Below, piece by piece: positions 1 through 58,500 of a DNA stretch of 64,000 nucleotides. Below the pieces are notes generated by a model. It did no database searches and was not told the DNA's origin. It saw only the letters and a list, made by a program, of their open reading frames with translations. The translations under genes and the position numbers were made by a program. Position 1 is the stretch's first letter. Every line of letters starts with the position of its first letter. Source of the DNA: Octopus sinensis (taxonomy: Eukaryota); the NCBI RefSeq assembly GCF_006345805.1, contig NC_043007.1:744001-808000 (forward strand), read 5' to 3'.

Positions 1-757
1 TATGTGCCACCGACACAGGTGCCAGACGAGGCTGGCAGACGGCCACGCTCGGATGGTGTTTTTATGTGCCACCGACACAGGTGCCAGATGAGGCTGGTGG
101 ACGGCCATGATCGGATGGTGTTTGTTACGTCCCCAAAGCACGGAGGCCAGTCTATGCGGTACTGGCTACGGCCACGTTCGGATGGTTTTCTTGTGTGCCA
201 CCGGCACTGGTACCGCAAAGATACAAATTCCATTGATGTTCATCTATTTTGATTTGTTTTGATTTGATTTGATTTTCACTTGCCTCAACAGGTCTTCACA
301 AGTGTCACAAGAAGAAGGTATGCACAGGTGGACTGACTACGTCCCAGGTAGGGGCCACGGGTTATGGCCTGACTAGTCTTGCCGGGTCTTCGGATGGTGT
401 TTTTATGTGCCACCGACACAGGTGCCAGATGAGGCTGGCGAACGGCCACGATCGGATGGTGTTTGTTGCGTGCCCACAGCACGGAGGCCAGTCGATGCGG
501 TACTGGCTACGGCCACGTTCGGATGGTTTTCTTGTGTGCCACCGGCACTGGTACCACAAAGATACAAATTCCATTGATGTTCATCTATTTTGATTTGATT
601 TGATTTGATTTTCACTTGCCTCAACAGGTCTTCACAGGTCTTCACAAGTGTCACAAGAAGGAAGGAAGGTATGCACAGGTGGACTGACTACGTCCCAAGT
701 AGGGGCCACGGGTTATGGCCTGACTAGTACTGGTACCACAAAGATACAAATTCCATT
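1..757 (-). mobile_element. RTE LINE 3' UTR fragment, tandemly duplicated (~341-bp period)
   Basis: Reverse complement matches the 3' UTR of the RTE at 19300-19760 (AAGACCCGGCA..., CTTGTGAAGAC..TTGAGGCAAGTGA, GTGCC/GGCAC hairpin units). The unit starting at ~50 recurs at 391. Confidence 0.8.
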
Positions 758-1551: not shown

Positions 1552-2342
1552 GAATCTTGATTGACATAGACTCTTGACTGACTAAAACTCTTGGTTGACT
1601 AAGACTCTTGATTGACTAAGACTCTTGATTGACTTAGACTCTTGATTGACTTAGACGCTTGATTGACTAAGACTCTTGATTGACTTATACTCTTGATTGA
1701 CTAAGACTCTTGATTGACTGAGACTCTTGATTGACTTAGACTCTTGATTGACTTAGACTATTAAGTGACTAAGACTCTTGATTGACTTAGACTCTTGATT
1801 GACTTAGACTCTTGAGTGACTATGACTCTTGATTGACTTCGACTCTTGATTGACTAAGACACTTGATTGACTTAGACTCTTGATTGACTAAGACTCTTGA
1901 TTGACTAAAAGTCTTGACTGACTAAGACTCTTGATTGACTAAGACTCTTGATTGACTTAGACTTTTGATTGACTGAGACTCTTGATTGACTAAGACTCTT
2001 GATTGACTGAGACTCTTGATTGACTTAGACTCTTGATTGACTTAGACTATTGAGTGACTAAGACTCTTGATTGACTTATACTCTTGATTGACTTAGACTC
2101 TTGAGTGACTATGACTCTTGATTGACTTAGACTCTTGATTGACTAAGACACTTGATTGACTTAGACTCTTGATTGACTAAGACTCTTGATTGACTAAAAC
2201 TCTTGACTGACTAAGACTCTTGATTGACTAAGACTCTTGATTGTCTTAGACTTTTGATTGACTTAGACTCTTGAGTGACTAAGACTCTTGATTGACTTAG
2301 ACACTTGATTGACTTAGACTCTTGATTGACTAAGACTCTTGA
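1552..2342. repeat. 17-bp minisatellite (consensus TTGATTGACTWAGACTC), ~46 units
   Basis: Directly visible tandem array; diagnostic variants recur at a 289-bp (17 x 17) offset. Confidence 0.97.
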
Positions 2343-3110
2343 TAGTGTCACACAACAAAGTTTATTCCAGCAATGTTCCACAGACCAACAACAAGGTTTA
2401 AAACCATAATAGTTTTGGGGAGTTTGTACGGCATTGGCAAACCTGATGCCAGGATATGGAAGACAACACTTGTTCAAGATTCCACGTAGTAAAACAGAAT
2501 CTAAAACCGAATTGCAAAGTGAAATACATACAACAAAACAGTGATTCTTGTGCCTCATAATCACTGTCTCACCACCACCAACAGCACCGCTGCCACCAAA
2601 AACATGTTCGTCTCTAAAGATGAGGTTAATAGAGTAAAAAATGTACAATCTTATATTATTGTTTTATTTAATATTTTATTTTCAATTTTATTTTTGTTTA
2701 CTATTTTCTCAAAAACATAATTCTGCTATACTATAGTTTAAGAATATTTTTTTCCGAAAAGTAATTAAAATTACTTTTATAAAACTGATTAAATTTGTCT
2801 AGGTAATTACTATTTCATGTGTAACAAATTGGTTATAAAGCCAGTTTCTTTTTTTTTTTTTCTTTTTTCGTTTTTCCTTCTTTTCTTTTGAAGACTTTTG
2901 ATGTGAAGGAAGATCAGGCTGGCACTAAACTATTAAAATAAAATAAGAAAGAATTTAAGAACGCCACATCATTTTCATCTCATCCACATCTCACCAACTA
3001 CTTGCAGAGTGCAAAGGGCATGATATTTCCTTCTGATACATATTAACCCTCTTGATTACCAACTCACCTGAAGCTACCCCTGGTTCTATGATGCAAACAT
3101 TCTGCTTTAA

Positions 3111-13129: not shown

Positions 13130-13182
13130 TAATGATAATAATGATAATAATGATAATAATAATAATAATAATAATATAATGA

Positions 13183-13673
13183 TCATCATCATCATCATCG
13201 TCGTTTAACGTCCGTTCTCCATGCTAGCATGGGTTGGACGGTTCGACCGGGGATCTGGGAAGCCAGAAGGCTGCACCAGGCTCCAGTCTTATCTGGCAGT
13301 GTTTCTACAGCTGGATGCCCTTCCTAACGCCAACCACTCCGTGAGTGTAGTGGGTGCTTTTTACGTGCCACCTGCACAGGTGCAAGGCGAGGCTGGCAAC
13401 GGCCACGGTCGGATTGGTGTATTTTATGTGCCACCGGCACGGAAGCCAGACGAGGCGGTGCTGGCATCGGCTACGAGTCGGATGGTGCTTTTTACGTACC
13501 ACCAGACCAGGGATCCTGGCTGGTTCAATTCGATTTCAATTTCGCTTGCCCCAACATGTCTTCGCAAGCAAGGGGTTTGGCATGGGTGCCTGTCGTACGG
13601 TCAGATTGGTGTATTTTACGTGCCACCGGCACAGAAGCCAGTGGGGGCGGCGCTGGCATCGGCCACGAGTCGG
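13183..13673 (-). mobile_element. RTE LINE 3' UTR fragment with (GAT)n tail
   Basis: (CAT)n-CGTTTAACGTCCG...CATGCTAGCATGGG plus several hairpin units. Confidence 0.9.
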
Positions 13674-17006: not shown

Positions 17007-19323
17007 CCCACAACATAGACTGGTAGTTAGTGACTTTAGGATCAGGACTAGGAGGACAACCAGAAGACGACAAATATGAGAAGAAGGATCTGGAAGCTTA
17101 AAGATCCTGCAAATGGACAGAGATTTAGGGACATATTACTTGAAGCCTCTGACGAAGTAGAAGGGGATAGAGCATCACAGGGGGTAGAAGACAGCTGGAC
17201 GTTTCTAAGGGACAACCTGCTGAGAGCCACTGACCAGATCTGGGGCTGGTGCAAAGTCCCCTCTCGACCTAGAATAACGTTGGTGGTGGAACAATATTGT
17301 AGACAGGGCTATTAGAGAAAAGAGACAGGCTTGGAAGGTCTGGAAAAATGGGGGTAGCAGGGAATTGTATCAGACTGCCAAAAGAGAAGCTAGAAGACAG
17401 GTTTATTTAGCCAGAGGGGAAGCAGATAAGAAAAATTTGCCAATGTTCTGCGCCGTGAGGACCAAAGACTGGAGGTGTTTCGTGTTGCAAGACAGTGTGT
17501 GAGAGAGAATCGTGATGTGGTAGGAGAGAAGTGTGTTCGCATGGAAGATGGTTCACTTGCGCTAAATGAGGATGCGAAGAGAGAGGTTTGGAGATGCCAC
17601 TATGAAAGGCTGCTGAATGAAGAAAATGAATGGGATAAAGAGAGTCTGCCGAATGTTGACCCAACAGAGGGACCAGCTATCCGAGTTGATAGTTCTGTGG
17701 TAGCTAAGGTAATTAGAAGCATGAAGACAGGGAAAGCCCCAGGCCCATCAGGAATCACTGCAGAGATGCTCAAAATGTCTGGTAGTGTCGGCTATAGCCT
17801 AGTCACCCATATAGTTAATCAGGTGATACACAAAGGGGTCATACCCAATGACTGGTTGTAGCAGTAATAGTCAACTGCTACAAAGGTAAAGGTGATGCCC
17901 TAGATACAAATAACTACAGAGGTATCAAGCTGTTGGACCAGGTGATGAAGGTTACGGAGAGGGTCATAGCCAACTAATTAGAGAGAGAGTTAGTTTAGAT
18001 GAGATGCAGTTTGGGTTTGTGCCAGGGAAAAGTACTACTGATGCTATATTCCTGGTAAGGCAGCTGCAGGAGAAATACCTAGCCAAAGATAAGCCCCTGT
18101 ACCTGGCTTTTGTTGACATGGAGAAAGCCTTCGACAGGGTCCCCCGATCCCTTATCTGGTGGGCAATGAGAAAACTAGGGATAGATGAATGGTTAGTGAG
18201 AGCTGTGCGGGCCATGTATAGGGACGCCACTAGTAGGGTGAGGGTTGGAAATGAGTACAGTGAAGAATTCCGGGTAGAGGTAGGGGTCCACCAAGGCTCA
18301 GTACCCAGCCCCCTCCTATTTATCATAGTCCTCCAGGCAATAACGGAGGAATTCAAGACAGGATGCCCTTGGGAGCTCCTCTATGCTGATGACCTTGCTC
18401 TAATTGCTGAGTCGCTATCAGAACTGGAGGAGAAGTTTCAGGTGTGGAAACAAGGATTAGAATCGAAGGGCCTCAGAGTCAATCTAGCTAAAACCAAAGT
18501 CGTAATCAGTAGGAAGGTAGACAAATCACAAACACCTTCAGGTAGATGCCCTGCTCGATCTGTAGAAAAGGTGTAGGTAGAAACTCTATAAGATGCACCA
18601 AGTGTAAGCTATGGACACATAAGAGATGCAGCAATGTCAAAGGAAGGCTAACTAGGAAGATGGTTTTTGTATGTGGCAGATGCTCAGGAACAATAAACAC
18701 TTCCGTCACTTTCCAGGGAGAAAAACTAGAAATAGTTGATAGTTTCCGTTACCTAGGTGACCAAGTCAGCAGCGGGGGCGGGTGTGCTGAAAGTGTAACT
18801 GCTAGAGTAAGAATAGCTTGGGCAAAGTTCAGAGAGCTCTTACCTCTGCTGGTGACAAAAGGCCTCTCGCACAGAGTGAAAGGCAGACTGTATGATGCGT
18901 GTGTACGAACAGCCATGCTACATGGCAGTGAAACATGGGCCGTGACTGCTGAGGATATGCGTAAGCTCGCTAGAAATGAAGCCAGTATGCTCCGATGGAT
19001 GTGTAATGCCGGTACTCACACTCGGCAGAGTGTAAGTACCTTGAGAGAAAAGCTGGACCTAAGAAGCATCAGTTGTGGTGTGCAAGAGAGACGTTTGCGC
19101 TGGTATGGTCATGTGGCGAGAATGGATGAAGATTGTTGTGTGAAAAAGTGTCACACCCTAGCGGTTGAGGGAACCTGTGGAAGGGCAGACCAGGAAAGGA
19201 AGAGGCGACCCGGGACGAGGTGGTGAAGCACGACCTTCGAACTTTAGGTCTCACTGAGGAAATGACTAGAGACCGAGACCTCTGGAAGTTGCTGTGCGCG
19301 AGAAGACCCGGCAGGACAAGTGA
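17007..19323 (+). pseudogene. Frameshifted RTE ORF: reverse transcriptase with inserted PHD-type finger
   Basis: KAPGPSGI, NYRGIKLL, QFGFVPGKSTTDAIF, FVDMEKAFDRV, GVHQGSVPSPLLF, LLYADDLAL and FRYLG. About six frameshifts (near 17075, 17280, 17450, 17860, 18548, 19200-19290). Confidence 0.92.
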
Positions 19324-19931
19324 GTCACAACCCGTGGCCTTCTACATGGGATGGAGCCAGCCTACGTATGCATACCTTCCCTTCTTGGGACACAAAACTC
19401 TACTTGTGTGAAGACGTGTTGAGGCAAGTGAGGATCAGAATCGAAATCGATCAATGGAAATTGCGGATGTGCTACCAGTGCCGGTGGCATGTCGAAACTC
19501 TGCTTGTGAAGACCCATTGAGGCAAGTGAGGATCAGAATCGAAATCGATCAATGGAAATCGATCAATGGAAATTGCAGATGTGTTACCAGTGCGGTGGCA
19601 TGTAAGAGAACTTTCCGTTTCGCGACCGTTGCCAGCACCGCCCCGTTTCGTGTCCGTTGCCAGCCTCGCCTGGCCCTCGTGCCGGTGGCACATAAAAAGC
19701 ACCATCCGTTCGTGGCCGTTTGCCAGCTCTGTCTGGCACCAGTGCGGGTGGCACGTAAAAAGCACCCACTACACTCACGGAGTGGTTGGCGTTAGGAAGG
19801 GCATCCAGCCGTAGAAACACTGCCAGATTTGACTGGGCCTGATGAAGCCTTCTGGCTTCACAGACCCCAGTAGAACCGTCCAACCCATGCTAGCATGGAA
19901 AACGGACGCTAAATGATGATGATGATGATGA

Positions 19932-19935
<4 letters not shown>
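17007..19935 (+). mobile_element. 5'-truncated RTE-clade LINE inserted in a (TA)n tract
   Basis: End of the APE domain (PQHRLVVSDF), RT motifs, post-RT 'MLHGSETW...RLRWYGHVARM', ~600-nt structured 3' UTR and (GAT)n tail; (TA)n on both flanks. Confidence 0.95.
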
Positions 19936-19969
<34 letters not shown>

Positions 19970-19987
19970 ATGATAATATACATAATG

Positions 19988-20205
19988 TCATCATCATCAT
20001 CATCGTTTAACGTCTGCTTTCCATGCTAGCATGGGTTGGACGATTTGACTGCAGACTGGCAAACCAGATGGCTGCGCCAGGCTCCAATCTGATCTGGCAG
20101 AGTTTCTACACCTGGATGCCCTTCCTAACGCCAACCACTCTGAGAGTGTAGTGGGTGCTTTTTACGTGCCACCAGCACAAGGGCCAGTCTAGCGGTACTG
20201 GCATC
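19988..20205 (-). mobile_element. RTE LINE 3' end, tail-to-tail with the main copy
   Basis: (CAT)n-CGTTTAACGTC...CATGCTAGCATGGGTTGGAC. Confidence 0.88.
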
Positions 20206-25957: not shown

Positions 25958-27181
25958 CCCTTTTGTTGCTGTATTTATTTCGAGATGCTCTGTGTCCTTT
26001 TCAATTAATTCTAAATATAACAAAGAATTTAGTAAAAGAACTTGGTTTATCATTCAGCTAGTGTTAAGAGCATAAATTGTGACTAAGGTTTGGTGGAAGA
26101 TTTTAATTCAGAACTTATGAAAACAAGACATTTATCCTTCAGAGCCAAAGGTGGTTTCAGCCGGGTTGGTATCAAAATGGTTAAGAATTGTTTCTCTATT
26201 ATATATTTTAACCCTTTCATTATCATATTTCTGTTGAGATGCTCTGTGTTTCTTTCAATTCATTTTAAAATATAACAAAGAATTTAGTAAAAGAACTTGG
26301 TTTATCATTCAGCTAGTGTTAAGAGCATAAATTGTGACTAAGGTTTGGTGGAAGATTTTAATTCAGAACTTATGAAAACAAGACATTTATCCTTCAGAGC
26401 CAAAGGTGGTTTCAGCCGGGTTGGTATCAAAATGGTTAAGAATTGTTTCTCTATTATATATTTTAACCCTTTCATTATCATATTTCTGTTGAGATGCTCT
26501 GTGTTTCTTTCAATTAATTTTAAAATATAACAAAGAATTTAGTAAAAGAACTTGGTTATCATTCAGCTAGTGTTAAGAGCATAAATTGTGACTAAGGTTT
26601 GGTGGAAGATTTTAATTCAGAACTTATGAAAACAAGACATTTATCCTTCAGAGCCAGAGGTGGTTTCAGCCGGGTTGGTATCAAAATGGTTAAGAATTGT
26701 TTCTCTATTATATATTTTAACCCTTTCATTATCATTTTCTGTTGAGATGCTCTGTGTTTCTTTCAATTAATTTTAAAATATAACAAAGAATTTAGTAAAA
26801 GAACTTGGTTATCATTCAGCTAGTGTTAAGAGCATAAATTGTGACTAAGGTTTGGTGGAAGATTTTAATTCAGAACTTATGAAAACAAGACATTTATCCT
26901 TCAGAGCCAGAGGTGGTTTCAGCCGGGTTGGTATCAAAATGGTTAAGAATTGTTTCTCTATTATATATTTTAACCCTTTCATTATCATATTTCTGTTGAG
27001 ATGCTCTGTGTTTCTTTCAATTAATTTTAAAATATAACAAAGAATTTAGTAAAATAACTTAATTATCATTAAGATAAGTGTTAGGAACATAAATTGGAAG
27101 ATTTTAATTCAAAATTTACGAAGACAAGACATTTGTACTACAGAGACAGAGGAGGTTTCAGGCAGTTTGGTATCAAAAGGG
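25958..27181. mobile_element. Tandem array of five piggyBac-like MITE units (~254-bp period)
   Basis: Each unit is TTAA|CCCTTT...CAAAA(T/G)GG|TTAA plus a ~24-bp spacer GAATTGTTTCTCTATTATATATT. Confidence 0.88.
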
Positions 27182-29640: not shown

Positions 29641-29850
29641 CCCACCTTATAAATCTTTTTTAATGTATTTCATATGTTGAAAGAAGTCGGTGAAAAAATT
29701 TTAGTAAAAAAATTAAATTTTAATTTTAGATTAAGATGGATTGCAAGAGAATACCATTGATATTAAATAAGGCAAGCATTAAAAAAATATGTCAGTGTGT
29801 GTGTTTGCATATATGTATATACATATATATACATATATATATATATATAT

Positions 29851-30957
29851 CATCATCATCATCATCATCGTTTAGCGTCCGTTTTCCATGCTAGCATGGG
29901 TTGGACGGGTCAACTGGGGTCTGTGAAGCTGGAAGGCTTCGTCAGGCCCAGTCAGATCTGGCAGTGTTTCTACGGCTGGATGCCCTTCCTAACGCCAACC
30001 ACTCCGCGAGTGTAGTGGGTGTTTTTTACGTGCCACTTGCACAGGTGCCAGACAGAGCTGGCGAACGACCACGAACGGATGGTGCTTTTACGTGTCACCG
30101 GCACGGGGCCAGGCGATGCTGGCAACGGACACGAAACGTATGGTGCTTTTACGTGCCACCGACACGGGGCCAGACAGAGCTGGCAAACGGCCACGAGCGG
30201 ACGGTGCTTTTACGTGTCACCGGCACGGGGGCCAGCCGAGGCTGGCAACGGACACGGACGGATGGTGCTTTTATGTGCCACCGACACGGGGCCAGACAGA
30301 GCTGGCAAACGGCCACGAACGGATGGTGCTTTTACGTGTCACTGGCACGGGGGCCAGCCGAGGCTGGCAACGGACGCGAACAGATGGTGCTTTTACGTGC
30401 CACCGACACGGTTGCCAGACAGAGCTGGCAAACGGCCACGAGCGGACGGTGCTTTTACGTGTCACCGGCACGGGGGCCAGCCGAGGCTGGCAACGGACAC
30501 GGACGGATGGTGCTTTTATGTGCCACCGACACGGGGCCAGACAGAGCTGGCAAACGGCCACGAACGGATGGTGCTTTTACGTGTCACTGGCACGGGGGCC
30601 AGCCGAGGCTGGCAACGGACGCGAACAGATGGTGCTTTTACGTGCCACCGACACGGTTGCCAGACAGAGCTGGCAAACGGCCACGAGCGGACGGTGCTTT
30701 TACGTGTCACCGGCACGGGGGCCAGCCGAGGCTGGCAACGGACACGGACGGATGGTGCTTTTACGTGCCACCGACACGGGGCCAGACAGAGCTGGCAAAC
30801 GGCCACGAACAGATGGTGCTTTTACGTGCCACCGACACGGGGCCAGACGGAGCTGGCCAACGGCCACGAACGGACGGTGCTTTTACGTGTCACCGGCATG
30901 GGGCCAGGCGAGGCTGGCAACGAACACGAACAGATGGTGCTTTTACGTGCCACCGAC

Positions 30958-30958
<1 letters not shown>
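29851..30958 (-). mobile_element. RTE LINE 3' end with expanded 61-bp hairpin-unit array (15 full units)
   Basis: (CAT)n tail and RTE terminus at 29851-30029. Unit starts are at 30030, 30092, 30153, 30214 ... 30887, 30947. Confidence 0.93.
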
Positions 30959-37804: not shown

Positions 37805-38663
37805 ACTGACCTGGCAAGTAAAGTGAAATCACGGCTGTAGCCTACTCCAGTGTTGCATGACCAGCCCACTTAAAAAGTACCTTTGGAAAGTCGGGTGACA
37901 TGCTGGCAATGTTTCTACAGCTGGATGCCCTTCCTAATGCCAACCACTCTGAGAGTGTAGTGGGTGCTTTTTATGTGCCACCGGTACGGGAGCCAGTCAG
38001 GTGGGACTGGCATTGGTCACATTCAGATGGTGCTTTTTACGTGCCACTGGCATAGGGAGCCAGTCAGGCAGCACTGGCAATGACCCACGCATGAATGGTG
38101 CTTATTGCATGCCACTAGCACTATTGAGTCAAGTATATCAAAATCAAAATCAAAATCAAGATCAAATCAAATCACAATCAAATGGAAATTGTAGTTGTGG
38201 CAGATGCCAGTGCCACCTGACTGGCTCCCCATACCAGTGGCATGCCAGCCGCCCCCCAACTTGCTCCTGTGCCGGTGGCACATAAAAAGCACCATCCGAA
38301 CTGGCCAATACCAGTGCCACCTGACTGGCTTCCGTGCTAGTGGCACACAATAAGCACTATTCATGTGTGGGCTGTTGCCAGTGCCGCCTGACTGGCTCCT
38401 TATGCCAGTGGCACGTAAAAAGCACCATCTGAATGTGACCAATGCCAGTGCCACCTGACTGGCTCCCGTACCGGTGGCACATAAAAAGTACCCACTACAC
38501 TCTCGGAGAGGTTGGCATTAGAAAAGGCATCCAGCTGTAGAAACATTGCCAGATCAGATTGAAGCCTGGTGCAGCCTCCTGGTATGCCAGTCCCCAGTCA
38601 AACCGTCCAACCCATGCCAGCCTGGAAAGCACACGGTTTATGATGATGATGATGATGATGATG
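37805..38663 (+). mobile_element. RTE 3' UTR copy containing an internal inverted duplication
   Basis: The UTR runs 37805-37902 and resumes at ~38121 to the (GAT)n tail. 37903-38121 is a reverse-complement copy of 38334-38552. Confidence 0.85.
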
Positions 38664-47619: not shown

Positions 47620-48176
47620 CAAATTCGATTATTGGCATCCGTGCTAGTGGGGTGCAAAGAGCACCATATGAGTGTGATCATTGACAGAGCGGCTAACCAG
47701 CTTCTGTGCCAGTGGCACATAAAAGGGCACCATTTGAGAGTAATCGTTACCAGCGTCGCCTTACTGGCACTTGTGCCCCGTGCTAGTAGGGTGCCAAGAG
47801 CACCATCCGAGCGTGATTGTTGCCAGAGCAGCCAACTGGCTTCCATGCCAGTGGCACGCAAAAGGGCACCATTCGAGCATGATCATTACCAACGTCGGCT
47901 TACTGGCACCTGTGCAGGTGGCATGTGTAAAAAGATTCGAGCGAGGTCATTGCTGGTACCGCTTGACTGGCCCCCGTGCCGGTGGCACGTAAAAAGCACC
48001 CACTACACTCTCGAAGTGGTTGGCGTTAGGAAGGGCATCAAGCTGTAGAAACTCTGCCAGATCAAGATTGGAGCTTGGTGCAGCCATCTGGTTCGCCAGC
48101 CCTCAGTCAAAATCGTCCAACCCATGCTAGCATGAAAAGCAGATGTTAAGCGATGATGATGATGATAATGATGATG
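47620..48176 (+). mobile_element. RTE LINE 3' UTR fragment with ~6 diverged hairpin units
   Basis: Repeated GTGC.AGTGGCAC units, conserved terminus and (GAT)n tail. Confidence 0.88.
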
Positions 48177-57874: not shown

Positions 57875-58500
57875 AGGAATCCGAGGTAGAGGTAGACCCA
57901 GGAAGACATGGGATGAGGTGGTCAAGCATGACCTTCAAACGTTGGGCCTCACAGGAGTTATGCTGTGACTGCGAAGACCCAACAAACAACGTGAGTTCAT
58001 GGCTGTTTCCTGCACCAGCTTCACATAGAAGCTCCAGCCCATCCAAAGTACATTGGATCGCAGGACGGCCTGCTGTGCTTATCTTGGATCAAAGGGTGAC
58101 CTGCTGTGCTTTAGGAGACCTATTGAGTCAAGTACATCAACATCAAAATAAATATGAAATGGAAATTGTAGTTGTGATACCTGTGCCAGTGGCACATAAA
58201 AAGCACCAACTGATCGTGGGTGATGCCAGTGCCGCCTTGACTGGCTTCCGTGCCGGTGGCGCGTAAAAAGCACTATCTGATCGTGGCCATTGCCAGCCTC
58301 CCCTGGCACCTGTGCCGGTGGCATGTAAAAAGCACCTACTACCTTCACGGAGTGGTTGGCGTTAGGTAGGGCAACCAGCTGTAGAAACACTGCCAGATCA
58401 GACTGGAGCCTGGTGCAGCCTCCTGGTTTTCCAGACCCTGGTCGAACTGTCCAACCCATGCTAGCATGGAAAACAGACGTTAAACGATGATGATGATGAT
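57875..58500 (+). mobile_element. 5'-truncated RTE copy: ORF end plus 3' UTR
   Basis: RGRGRPRKTWDEVVKHDLQTLGLT followed by the UTR, three hairpin units, terminus and (GAT)n. Confidence 0.9.

What the first reader, a model, noticed from the sequence alone, without database searches (positions are those of the whole stretch)
19324..19935. Long modular RTE 3' UTR built from double-hairpin units with conserved stems and variable loops
Seen: two independent copies (17007-19935 and 57875-58500) link the ORF end to this UTR, so it belongs to the LINE. Each ~60-nt unit has stem 1 GTGCC-GGT-GGCAC, stem 2 GCCAG-loop-CTGGC and a TAAAA(A)GCACC linker. Stem-2 interiors differ between copies (written on the antisense strand: ACAGAG, CCGAGG, TCAGGCAGTA, TCGATGCGGTA, TGGGGGCGGCG) while the stems persist. 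Unit number ranges from about 2 to 15 across ~12 copies. Inference: an RNA-structure array under selection, such as multivalent ORF-protein binding sites, a localisation or stability signal, or a small-RNA source. This is the best candidate for an undescribed system in the window.
Basis: partly seen in the sequence, partly recalled or inferred. Interest (0 to 1): 0.75.

Follow-up and report, generated by a model that had tools for sequence, protein, structure and literature searches.

The report
Duplication-grown repeats in a retrotransposon tail
The tail of a very common jumping gene (an RTE-type LINE, likely from an octopus) carries from none to fifteen copies of a ~62-base self-complementary repeat; only one of its two proposed hairpins is conserved and no paired changes support a shared RNA fold, so the repeat is likely a mostly neutral product of repeated duplication, sitting just upstream of the tail signal that the element's copying enzyme likely grips.

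Summary
The repeat is real. It lies in the 3' UTR of an abundant RTE-type LINE: 29 of 29 nearest copies join the ORF end to this UTR. The 19324-19935 copy holds one complete unit; other subfamilies hold 0-15. In the oldest subfamily sampled, both 'hairpins' derive from one 26-base motif (20/26 identical), and the spacer copies the ORF end (28/29). Stem 2 is conserved between 26 unit types (0.5 changes per site against 2.3, p=0.0004), but all of its changes break pairs. Stem 1 is not significantly conserved (p=0.08), is broken in successful subfamilies, and reaches predicted probability above 0.3 at 3 of 63 sites. Covariation equals shuffled controls. The likely enzyme-recognition signal is the last ~150 bases, whose end hairpin is shared with a SINE-like family lacking units. 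Verdict: a duplication-prone LINE tail with weak constraint on one hairpin; a multivalent binding array is not excluded. The scan has noted tandem growth of LINE tails elsewhere in this genome.

The parts
17007..19323 (+). 5'-truncated, frameshifted ORF of the LINE (subfamily A): reverse transcriptase, then a PHD-like finger; stop at 19321-19323; flanked by (TA)n
   Evidence: Pfam RVT_1 E=2e-27; PHD 23.1 bits, below the cut-off of 24
19324..19477 (+). 5' part of the 3' UTR, subfamily-specific, no units
19478..19601 (+). Two stem-1 words (19478-19490 and 19590-19601) bounding a ~100-base duplication of upstream UTR; no stem 2
19602..19678 (+). Degenerate unit with an internal short duplication and one stem-2 hairpin (19659-19674)
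19679..19741 (+). The only complete ~62-base unit in this copy: stem-1 word 19679-19691, linker 19693-19703, stem 2 at 19722-19726 with 19733-19737
   Evidence: predicted P(stem 1)=0.49, P(stem 2)=0.98
19742..19766 (+). Terminal copy of the 26-base motif (stem-1 word with its inner pair broken, plus linker)
19767..19912 (+). Conserved tail domain; end hairpin at 19885-19898 with outer stem 19876-19881/19904-19908; likely the RT recognition signal
   Evidence: 2-19% divergence between 7 subfamilies against 14-52% at four-fold ORF sites; hairpin in 7 of 7 subfamilies; modules shared with a SINE-like family
19913..19935 (+). (ATG)n tail
29849..30958 (-). 5'-truncated copy of subfamily F: 15 units, mostly alternating dimers, plus tail
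57876..58500 (+). Subfamily B copy: ORF end, two units, tail
1..732 (-). Subfamily C UTR with a ~340-base higher-order duplication; tail lies beyond the window edge
13182..13668 (-). Subfamily D UTR fragment with ~190-base duplications
47620..48172 (+). Subfamily E UTR fragment with five diverged units, some with broken stems

Best explanation
This is the 3' UTR of an abundant RTE-type LINE in which a 26-base self-complementary motif at the 5' edge of the conserved tail has been duplicated repeatedly, likely by template jumps during reverse transcription or by unequal exchange, giving subfamily-specific arrays that are likely near-neutral, while the enzyme likely recognises the last ~150 bases. 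Shown: the units belong to the LINE; the two 'hairpins' are paralogues of one motif and the spacer is a copy of the ORF end; arrays differ between subfamilies and vary in steps within one; stem 2 is conserved without covariation; stem 1 is not significantly conserved. Inferred: the duplication mechanism; that the tail domain binds ORF2; that stem 2 is under weak element-level constraint, probably acting on the copy next to the tail.
For: Paralogy: 20 of 26 positions identical, 0 of 100000 shuffles reach this; spacer 28 of 29 identical to the ORF end. Long duplications in subfamilies A, D and J leave the motif 17, 36 and 26 bases after its start and re-enter 98-245 bases upstream; C shows a similar junction into ORF-end sequence (seen). 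Complete units per subfamily run J 0, A 1, B 2, I 2, D 2-4, E 5, C at least 6, with no age trend. In F, 20 copies with an intact array start have 7-12 units, 13 of them 8. Pair-breaking changes are fixed in young, successful subfamilies C, D and F. No covariation. Unit regions fold no better than shuffles in 7 of 8 subfamilies. The end hairpin has predicted P of at least 0.96 in 9 of 10 sequences. Its modules occur without units in 21 of 26 hits to SINE-like tail queries.
Against: Stem 2 is the least-changed pair of 5-base windows, 1 of 841 and 1 of 690 in an unanchored alignment; strict neutrality does not predict this. The stem 2 next to the tail has P of at least 0.5 in 8 of 9 sequences. 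In F, two stem-1 changes are complementary between neighbouring units: 210 of 212 internal junctions pair. Near-invariant stems give covariation tests little power. The end hairpin itself shows no compensatory change among the 7 subfamilies, and without a span limit its predicted P fell below 0.4 in 4 of 8 sequences. Neither ORF2 binding nor the duplication mechanism was tested.
Confidence: 0.6

Rival explanations
1. The units are a selected RNA array. Each offers a short CCAG/CUGG-type hairpin, possibly closed by a helix between neighbouring units, that binds ORF2 or a host factor, so extra copies improve cis-preference or RNA stability.
For: Stem 2 changes 0.5 per site against 2.3 (p=0.0004). 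Stem 2 has predicted P of at least 0.5 at 26 of 45 sites. RNAalifold on 26 types gives stem 2 plus a between-unit helix with P 0.96-0.99. The F dimer has an A-U for G-C swap in that helix. Similar CCAG/CTGG inverted words also occur in the tail domain and in a new hairpin in D (seen). Stem-2 differences among old copies are depleted (35 observed against 59.7 expected), but not among single-copy changes once E is removed (20 against 21), which points to constraint before insertion.
Against: All 5 stem-2 changes break pairs; none is wobble or compensatory. Covariation is matched by 209 and 162 of 500 shuffles for the two structures. The F swap is a single event found after the fact, and the last junction is mismatched in both F arrays folded. 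Words the model leaves unpaired are nearly as conserved: the next-best window pair has 6 changes against 5. Subfamilies with 0 or 1 unit amplified well.
Confidence: 0.25
2. Stem sequences stay alike for DNA-level or copying reasons: duplications and exchanges between subfamilies resolve in the repeated GC-rich words and homogenise them, with no selection on RNA at all.
For: Tails are likely exchanged between lineages: B and D differ at 49% of four-fold ORF sites but 2.0% in the tail. Several natural copies lose a unit or half-unit at the shared TGGCAC word (e.g. L033 and L055; L009).
Against: No protection of stem 2 after insertion among single-copy changes in B and I. The 3' arm stays fixed even in units whose following bases differ from stem 1.
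Confidence: 0.1
3. The array serves the host or silencing, as a small-RNA precursor or an ADAR substrate.
For: Repeats in 3' UTRs are edited in squid (PMC9068888, passages). A second, inverted tail copy at 19988-20187 would form a long duplex with this one.
Against: Stems of 5-7 pairs are far shorter than typical Dicer or ADAR substrates (general knowledge). No Rfam match at gathering scores; the weak hits in 19200-20000 are all far below threshold, and 7 of 8 lie mainly on the microsatellite tail. Long duplexes come from inverted neighbours, not from the units.
Confidence: 0.05

Closest known systems
RTE-clade (RTE-BovB class) LINEs of octopuses, including the 'potentially active' RTE of Octopus bimaculoides and RTE-2_OV (PMC9115989, passages; PMC8967140, passages)
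   Same: One ORF with endonuclease and reverse transcriptase, a 3' UTR of about 600 bases, a microsatellite tail and large expansion. The best named protein relative is from O. bimaculoides (81% identity over 71% of the query).
   Different: RTE-2_OV has a C2H2 finger and a 3' UTR made mostly of microsatellite; this family has a PHD-like finger and a GC-rich unit array. Identity with the O. bimaculoides element was not tested. The passages seen do not describe units in the UTR.
Stringent-type LINE/SINE shared 3' tails with a terminal stem-loop (PMC3747384, passages)
   Same: Conserved last ~150 bases, an end hairpin with a variable 2-base loop, a tandem-repeat tail, and two modules shared with a SINE-like family.
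   Different: No compensatory change was seen here, and requirement for retrotransposition was not tested.
SINE-derived satellites of squamates (PMC10702118, abstract and Discussion)
   Same: Tandem repeats of part of a retroelement next to an intact terminus, variable unit number, elongation by dimers.
   Different: Here the source is a LINE 3' UTR, the arrays are carried by active masters, and the longest array I saw has 15 units against up to 1000.
Tandem duplications in L1 UTRs (PMC5381506, passages)
   Same: Subfamily-specific duplicated motifs of 70-200 bases in a LINE UTR.
   Different: Those are in the 5' UTR and in mouse and rat carry promoter signals; the vertebrate 3' UTR repeats described are low-complexity tracts.

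Membership tests
RTE-clade LINE | AP endonuclease and reverse transcriptase in one ORF | tested here: met
   Copy L064 covers residues 41-1049 of an EN+RT+PHD homologue in two collinear pieces; that copy has a frameshift and stops
RTE-clade LINE | No separate ORF1 | tested here: inconclusive
   No plus-strand frame of 100 aa or more upstream of the ORF in L064:900-1550, but the 5' end was not delimited
RTE-clade LINE | 3' tail of short tandem repeats instead of poly(A) | tested here: met
   (ATG)n in the window and in the subfamily A copies shown
RTE-clade LINE | RT phylogeny groups with reference RTE elements | not tested
   No reference set on hand; the clade name rests on architecture and on end motifs recalled from memory
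   Met for stem 2 (p=0.0004), not met for stem 1 (p=0.077)
   0 compensatory pairs in stems 1 and 2 among 26 types; scores equal to shuffles; one swap in a different, between-unit helix
   Predicted P above 0.3 for stem 1 at 3 of 63 sites; P of at least 0.5 for stem 2 at 26 of 45
   Needs a reporter assay
Stringent-type LINE 3' tail | Terminal stem-loop conserved across subfamilies | tested here: met
   7 of 7 subfamilies, loop TA or CA; one stem base in B differs only after my CpG correction
Stringent-type LINE 3' tail | Tail shared with a partner SINE | tested here: inconclusive
   21 of 26 hits are short-tail copies without units; a head-like motif in 3 and a loose B-box-like match in 8 of the 21; SINE status is inferred, with motifs partly recalled
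SINE-derived satellite | Derived from a SINE | tested here: not met
   Arrays lie behind a LINE ORF end (15 of 30 F loci show it within 500 bases)
Known Rfam RNA family (e.g. hammerhead, HDV-like, miRNA) | Match at gathering score | tested here: not met
   0 matches in the window; only sub-threshold hits in 19200-20000

The most novel reading that the evidence does not exclude
A single-ORF LINE evolves a variable-number array of short CCAG/CUGG hairpins, closed by helices between neighbouring units, as extra ORF2-binding sites that help its own RNA outcompete SINEs for the enzyme, and swaps this tail between ORF lineages as a module.
Probability: 0.2. Interest if true: 0.7.

Novelty: new variant of a known kind. 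Interest (0 to 1): 0.33.

Why it matters
As most likely read, it is a clear natural series of how a LINE tail grows a minisatellite: one 26-base motif, repeated duplications leaving from the same place, dimer-step expansion, and likely tail swapping between lineages. The tail domain occurs about once per 9 kb in the stretches sampled, roughly 300,000 copies if extrapolated. That matters for repeat annotation and satellite origin in this genome, but it is not a new system. If stem 2 proves to be a repeated ORF2-binding site, the subfamilies with 0, 1, 2, 5 and 8 units would be a ready-made test of how single-ORF LINEs keep their enzyme for their own RNA.

Tried and rejected
Rfam and tRNA scan: nothing relevant. 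A hammerhead reading of the CTGATGA word in the tail was dropped by eye, since no GAAA follows the stem. A Meta-domain (MetaSINE) origin of the tail was a recalled lead; motif searches in the supplements of PMC4824008 (2 files searched, 1 not searchable) and PMC5786205 gave no support. Capture of the units from a SINE was rejected, because they derive from the LINE's own sequence. Hairpin-protected mutation after insertion was not supported among single-copy changes. Synonymous divergence as a clock for the units was dropped, because tails appear to be exchanged. Sequencing runs: no RNA holder listed; the four runs laid were contigs mixing thousands of copies, so they say nothing on expression or editing. 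The first clustering mixed strands, and a regex parse missed degenerate units; both were replaced. A local re-alignment misplaced the stem-2 3' arm and did not recover the pair. Older full-length copies beyond those held were not examined, so the 5' end stays undefined. Literature searches listed no paper describing these units. Repbase and Dfam are not on hand, so the family may already be catalogued there. PMC7846101, PMC13295347 and PMC4758252 (passages) and PMC13282606 (part 1 of 3) added only background.

Full report
What is there. Window 17007-19935 is a 5'-truncated non-LTR retrotransposon between (TA)n tracts. It encodes a reverse transcriptase (Pfam E=2e-27) and a PHD-like finger just under the Pfam cut-off. 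A longer copy, L064, adds an AP endonuclease in the same collinear ORF. The architecture and the (ATG)n tail fit the RTE clade; I did not build an RT tree. The best named protein relative is from Octopus bimaculoides, so the host is likely an octopus. The UTR runs from 19324 to 19912. Of the 29 best other copies fetched (40 of 2579 candidates were scored), all 29 join the ORF end to the same UTR, 0.2% from consensus.

Abundance and subfamilies. In 120 stretches of 10 kb, chosen at round coordinates and not strictly at random, the tail domain was hit 136 times, in 50 of the 120 stretches. Of the 136, 63 had no stem-1 word next to the tail, 35 had it without a complete unit, and 38 had one or more units; many are truncated. 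I sampled seven subfamilies by their best hits. Copies used for each UTR consensus and their divergence were A 29 (0.2%), D 10 (0.6%), C 29 (0.7%, last ~900 bases only), E 7 (5.1%), B 25 (6.5%), I 23 (9.7%) and J 21 (12.8%), of 29 fetched each (19 for D). Copies without an ORF-end anchor or tail were dropped. Complete units number J 0, A 1, B 2, I 2, D 2-4, E 5 and C at least 6. An eighth group, F, includes the 15-unit array at 30024-30958. Among 30 F loci, 20 retain the array start; these have 7-12 units, 13 of them 8, and the longer ones add dimers. There is no trend with age: the youngest subfamily, the one in the finding, has one unit.

Origin of the unit. In J, the block that later forms stem 2 and the block made of stem 1 plus linker are 26-base paralogues, 20 of 26 identical (0 of 100000 shuffles). 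The sequence that follows the linker is a copy of the ORF end, 28 of 29 identical. The 'double hairpin' is therefore a diverged dimer of one motif plus a remnant of duplicated ORF end. Long duplications in A, D and J leave the motif 17, 36 and 26 bases after its start and re-enter 98-245 bases upstream; C shows a similar junction. In old-type tails, position 10 of stem 1 is G in only 7 of 25, against 60 of 65 in newer tails, so stem 1 is a late, derived palindrome. Whether the duplications arise in reverse transcription or by DNA exchange is not decided here.

Conservation test. I compared 26 distinct unit types: 20 from CpG-corrected consensus UTRs, 5 cluster consensus units and 1 natural unit; duplications over 74 bases were left out. 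Parsimony on a tree of the units gave 0.5 changes per site in stem 2, 1.4 in stem 1 and 2.3 elsewhere (permutation p=0.0004 and 0.077). The stem-2 arms are the least-changed pair of 5-base windows, 1 of 841 and 1 of 690 in an unanchored global alignment, though the runner-up, which includes a word the model leaves unpaired, has 6 changes against 5. All five stem-2 changes break a pair. Stem 1 has 10 broken and 16 wobble cells of 130, with no compensatory change. Among old copies, stem 2 shows fewer differences than expected from context (35 against 59.7). Single-copy changes give 23 against 32.4 (P=0.053), and 20 against 21 without E, whose query covered the units. Stem 1 shows no deficit, 107 against 98. 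The constraint on stem 2 thus likely acts in active masters and is weak.

Folding. With pair span limited to 150 bases, stem 1 exceeds probability 0.3 at 3 of 63 sites. Stem 2 reaches 0.5 at 26 of 45 sites, including the copy next to the tail in 8 of 9 sequences. The end hairpin reaches 0.96 in 9 of 10; without the span limit it fell below 0.4 in 4 of 8. Unit regions beat shuffles (z below -2, sense strand) in 1 of 8 subfamilies. The window's 19640-19915 stretch has z=-2.99, and that signal lies in the tail domain (z -3.04), not in the units (z +0.79). [quoted passage not shown] In F, one change in each half is complementary in the between-unit register: 210 of 212 internal junctions pair. This is one evolutionary event noticed after the fact; the 30 last junctions were left out of that count, and the last junction is mismatched in both arrays folded.

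The tail domain. It diverges 2-19% between subfamilies whose ORFs differ at 14-52% of four-fold sites. B and D differ at 49% in the ORF but 2.0% in the tail, which points to tail exchange between lineages. The end hairpin is present in 7 of 7 subfamilies with a variable two-base loop. Two of the tail's modules recur without any unit in 21 of 26 hits to SINE-like tail queries; their SINE status is inferred. This matches stringent 3'-end recognition as reviewed in PMC3747384 (passages). If those copies are mobilised by this enzyme family, the units are not needed for recognition.

Comparison with print. RTE-BovB expansion in octopuses (PMC8967140, passages) and full-length octopus RTEs (PMC9115989, passages) are known. 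Retroelement-derived tandem arrays with dimer elongation are described for reptile SINEs (PMC10702118, abstract and Discussion), and duplicated UTR motifs for L1 (PMC5381506, passages). Eight searches listed nothing on these units. Repbase, Dfam and the supplements of the octopus papers were not seen and may hold the family. Earlier notes of this scan report other LINE tails in this genome grown into arrays; I did not check whether the 69-base repeat in one of them is this unit.

Verdict. The feature is real and apparently undescribed in detail, but most likely it is a duplication-prone LINE 3' UTR with one weakly constrained hairpin, not a new double-hairpin system. Novelty: new variant of a known kind; interest 0.33. 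The selected multivalent array keeps about a one-in-four chance, and a reporter with 0, 1 or n units would settle it.

Noticed in passing
window 19988-20187 (-): A second tail copy lies tail-to-tail with the finding's element; arms of 104 and 107 bases are 88% and 80% complementary, so a read-through transcript would form a long duplex. A similar inverted pair lies at 37903-38121 and 38260-38662.
   Followed up: partly
subfamilies B and D (L032-L060, L302-L320): ORFs differ at 49% of four-fold sites while tails differ by 2.0%: likely tail swapping between LINE lineages.
   Followed up: partly
window 18546-18690; L064:3246-4322: PHD-like finger right after the RT domain, also present in many distant homologues.
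   Followed up: partly
window 13182-13668 (-), subfamily D: A hairpin of about 10 pairs has replaced the 5' half of stem 1 in D, possibly by a fold-back event (seen).
   Followed up: no
L120:-4628, L069:-7395, L112:+7626, L176:+3186: Old-type tails preceded by pyrimidine-rich sequence and a shared short motif rather than the RTE UTR; possibly another element using the same tail.
   Followed up: no
L170:-7341, L133, L180 and others: Abundant old SINE-like family sharing two modules of the LINE tail, without units.
   Followed up: partly
window 1555-2343 and 25982-27096: Unrelated tandem arrays: 46 copies of a 17-base unit and 4.4 copies of a 255-base unit at 97% identity.
   Followed up: no
window 17007, 30958, 57875: These three copies have their 5' ends in (TA)n tracts, and many fetched copies run into (TA)n at the 3' end, suggesting a microsatellite target preference.
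   Followed up: no
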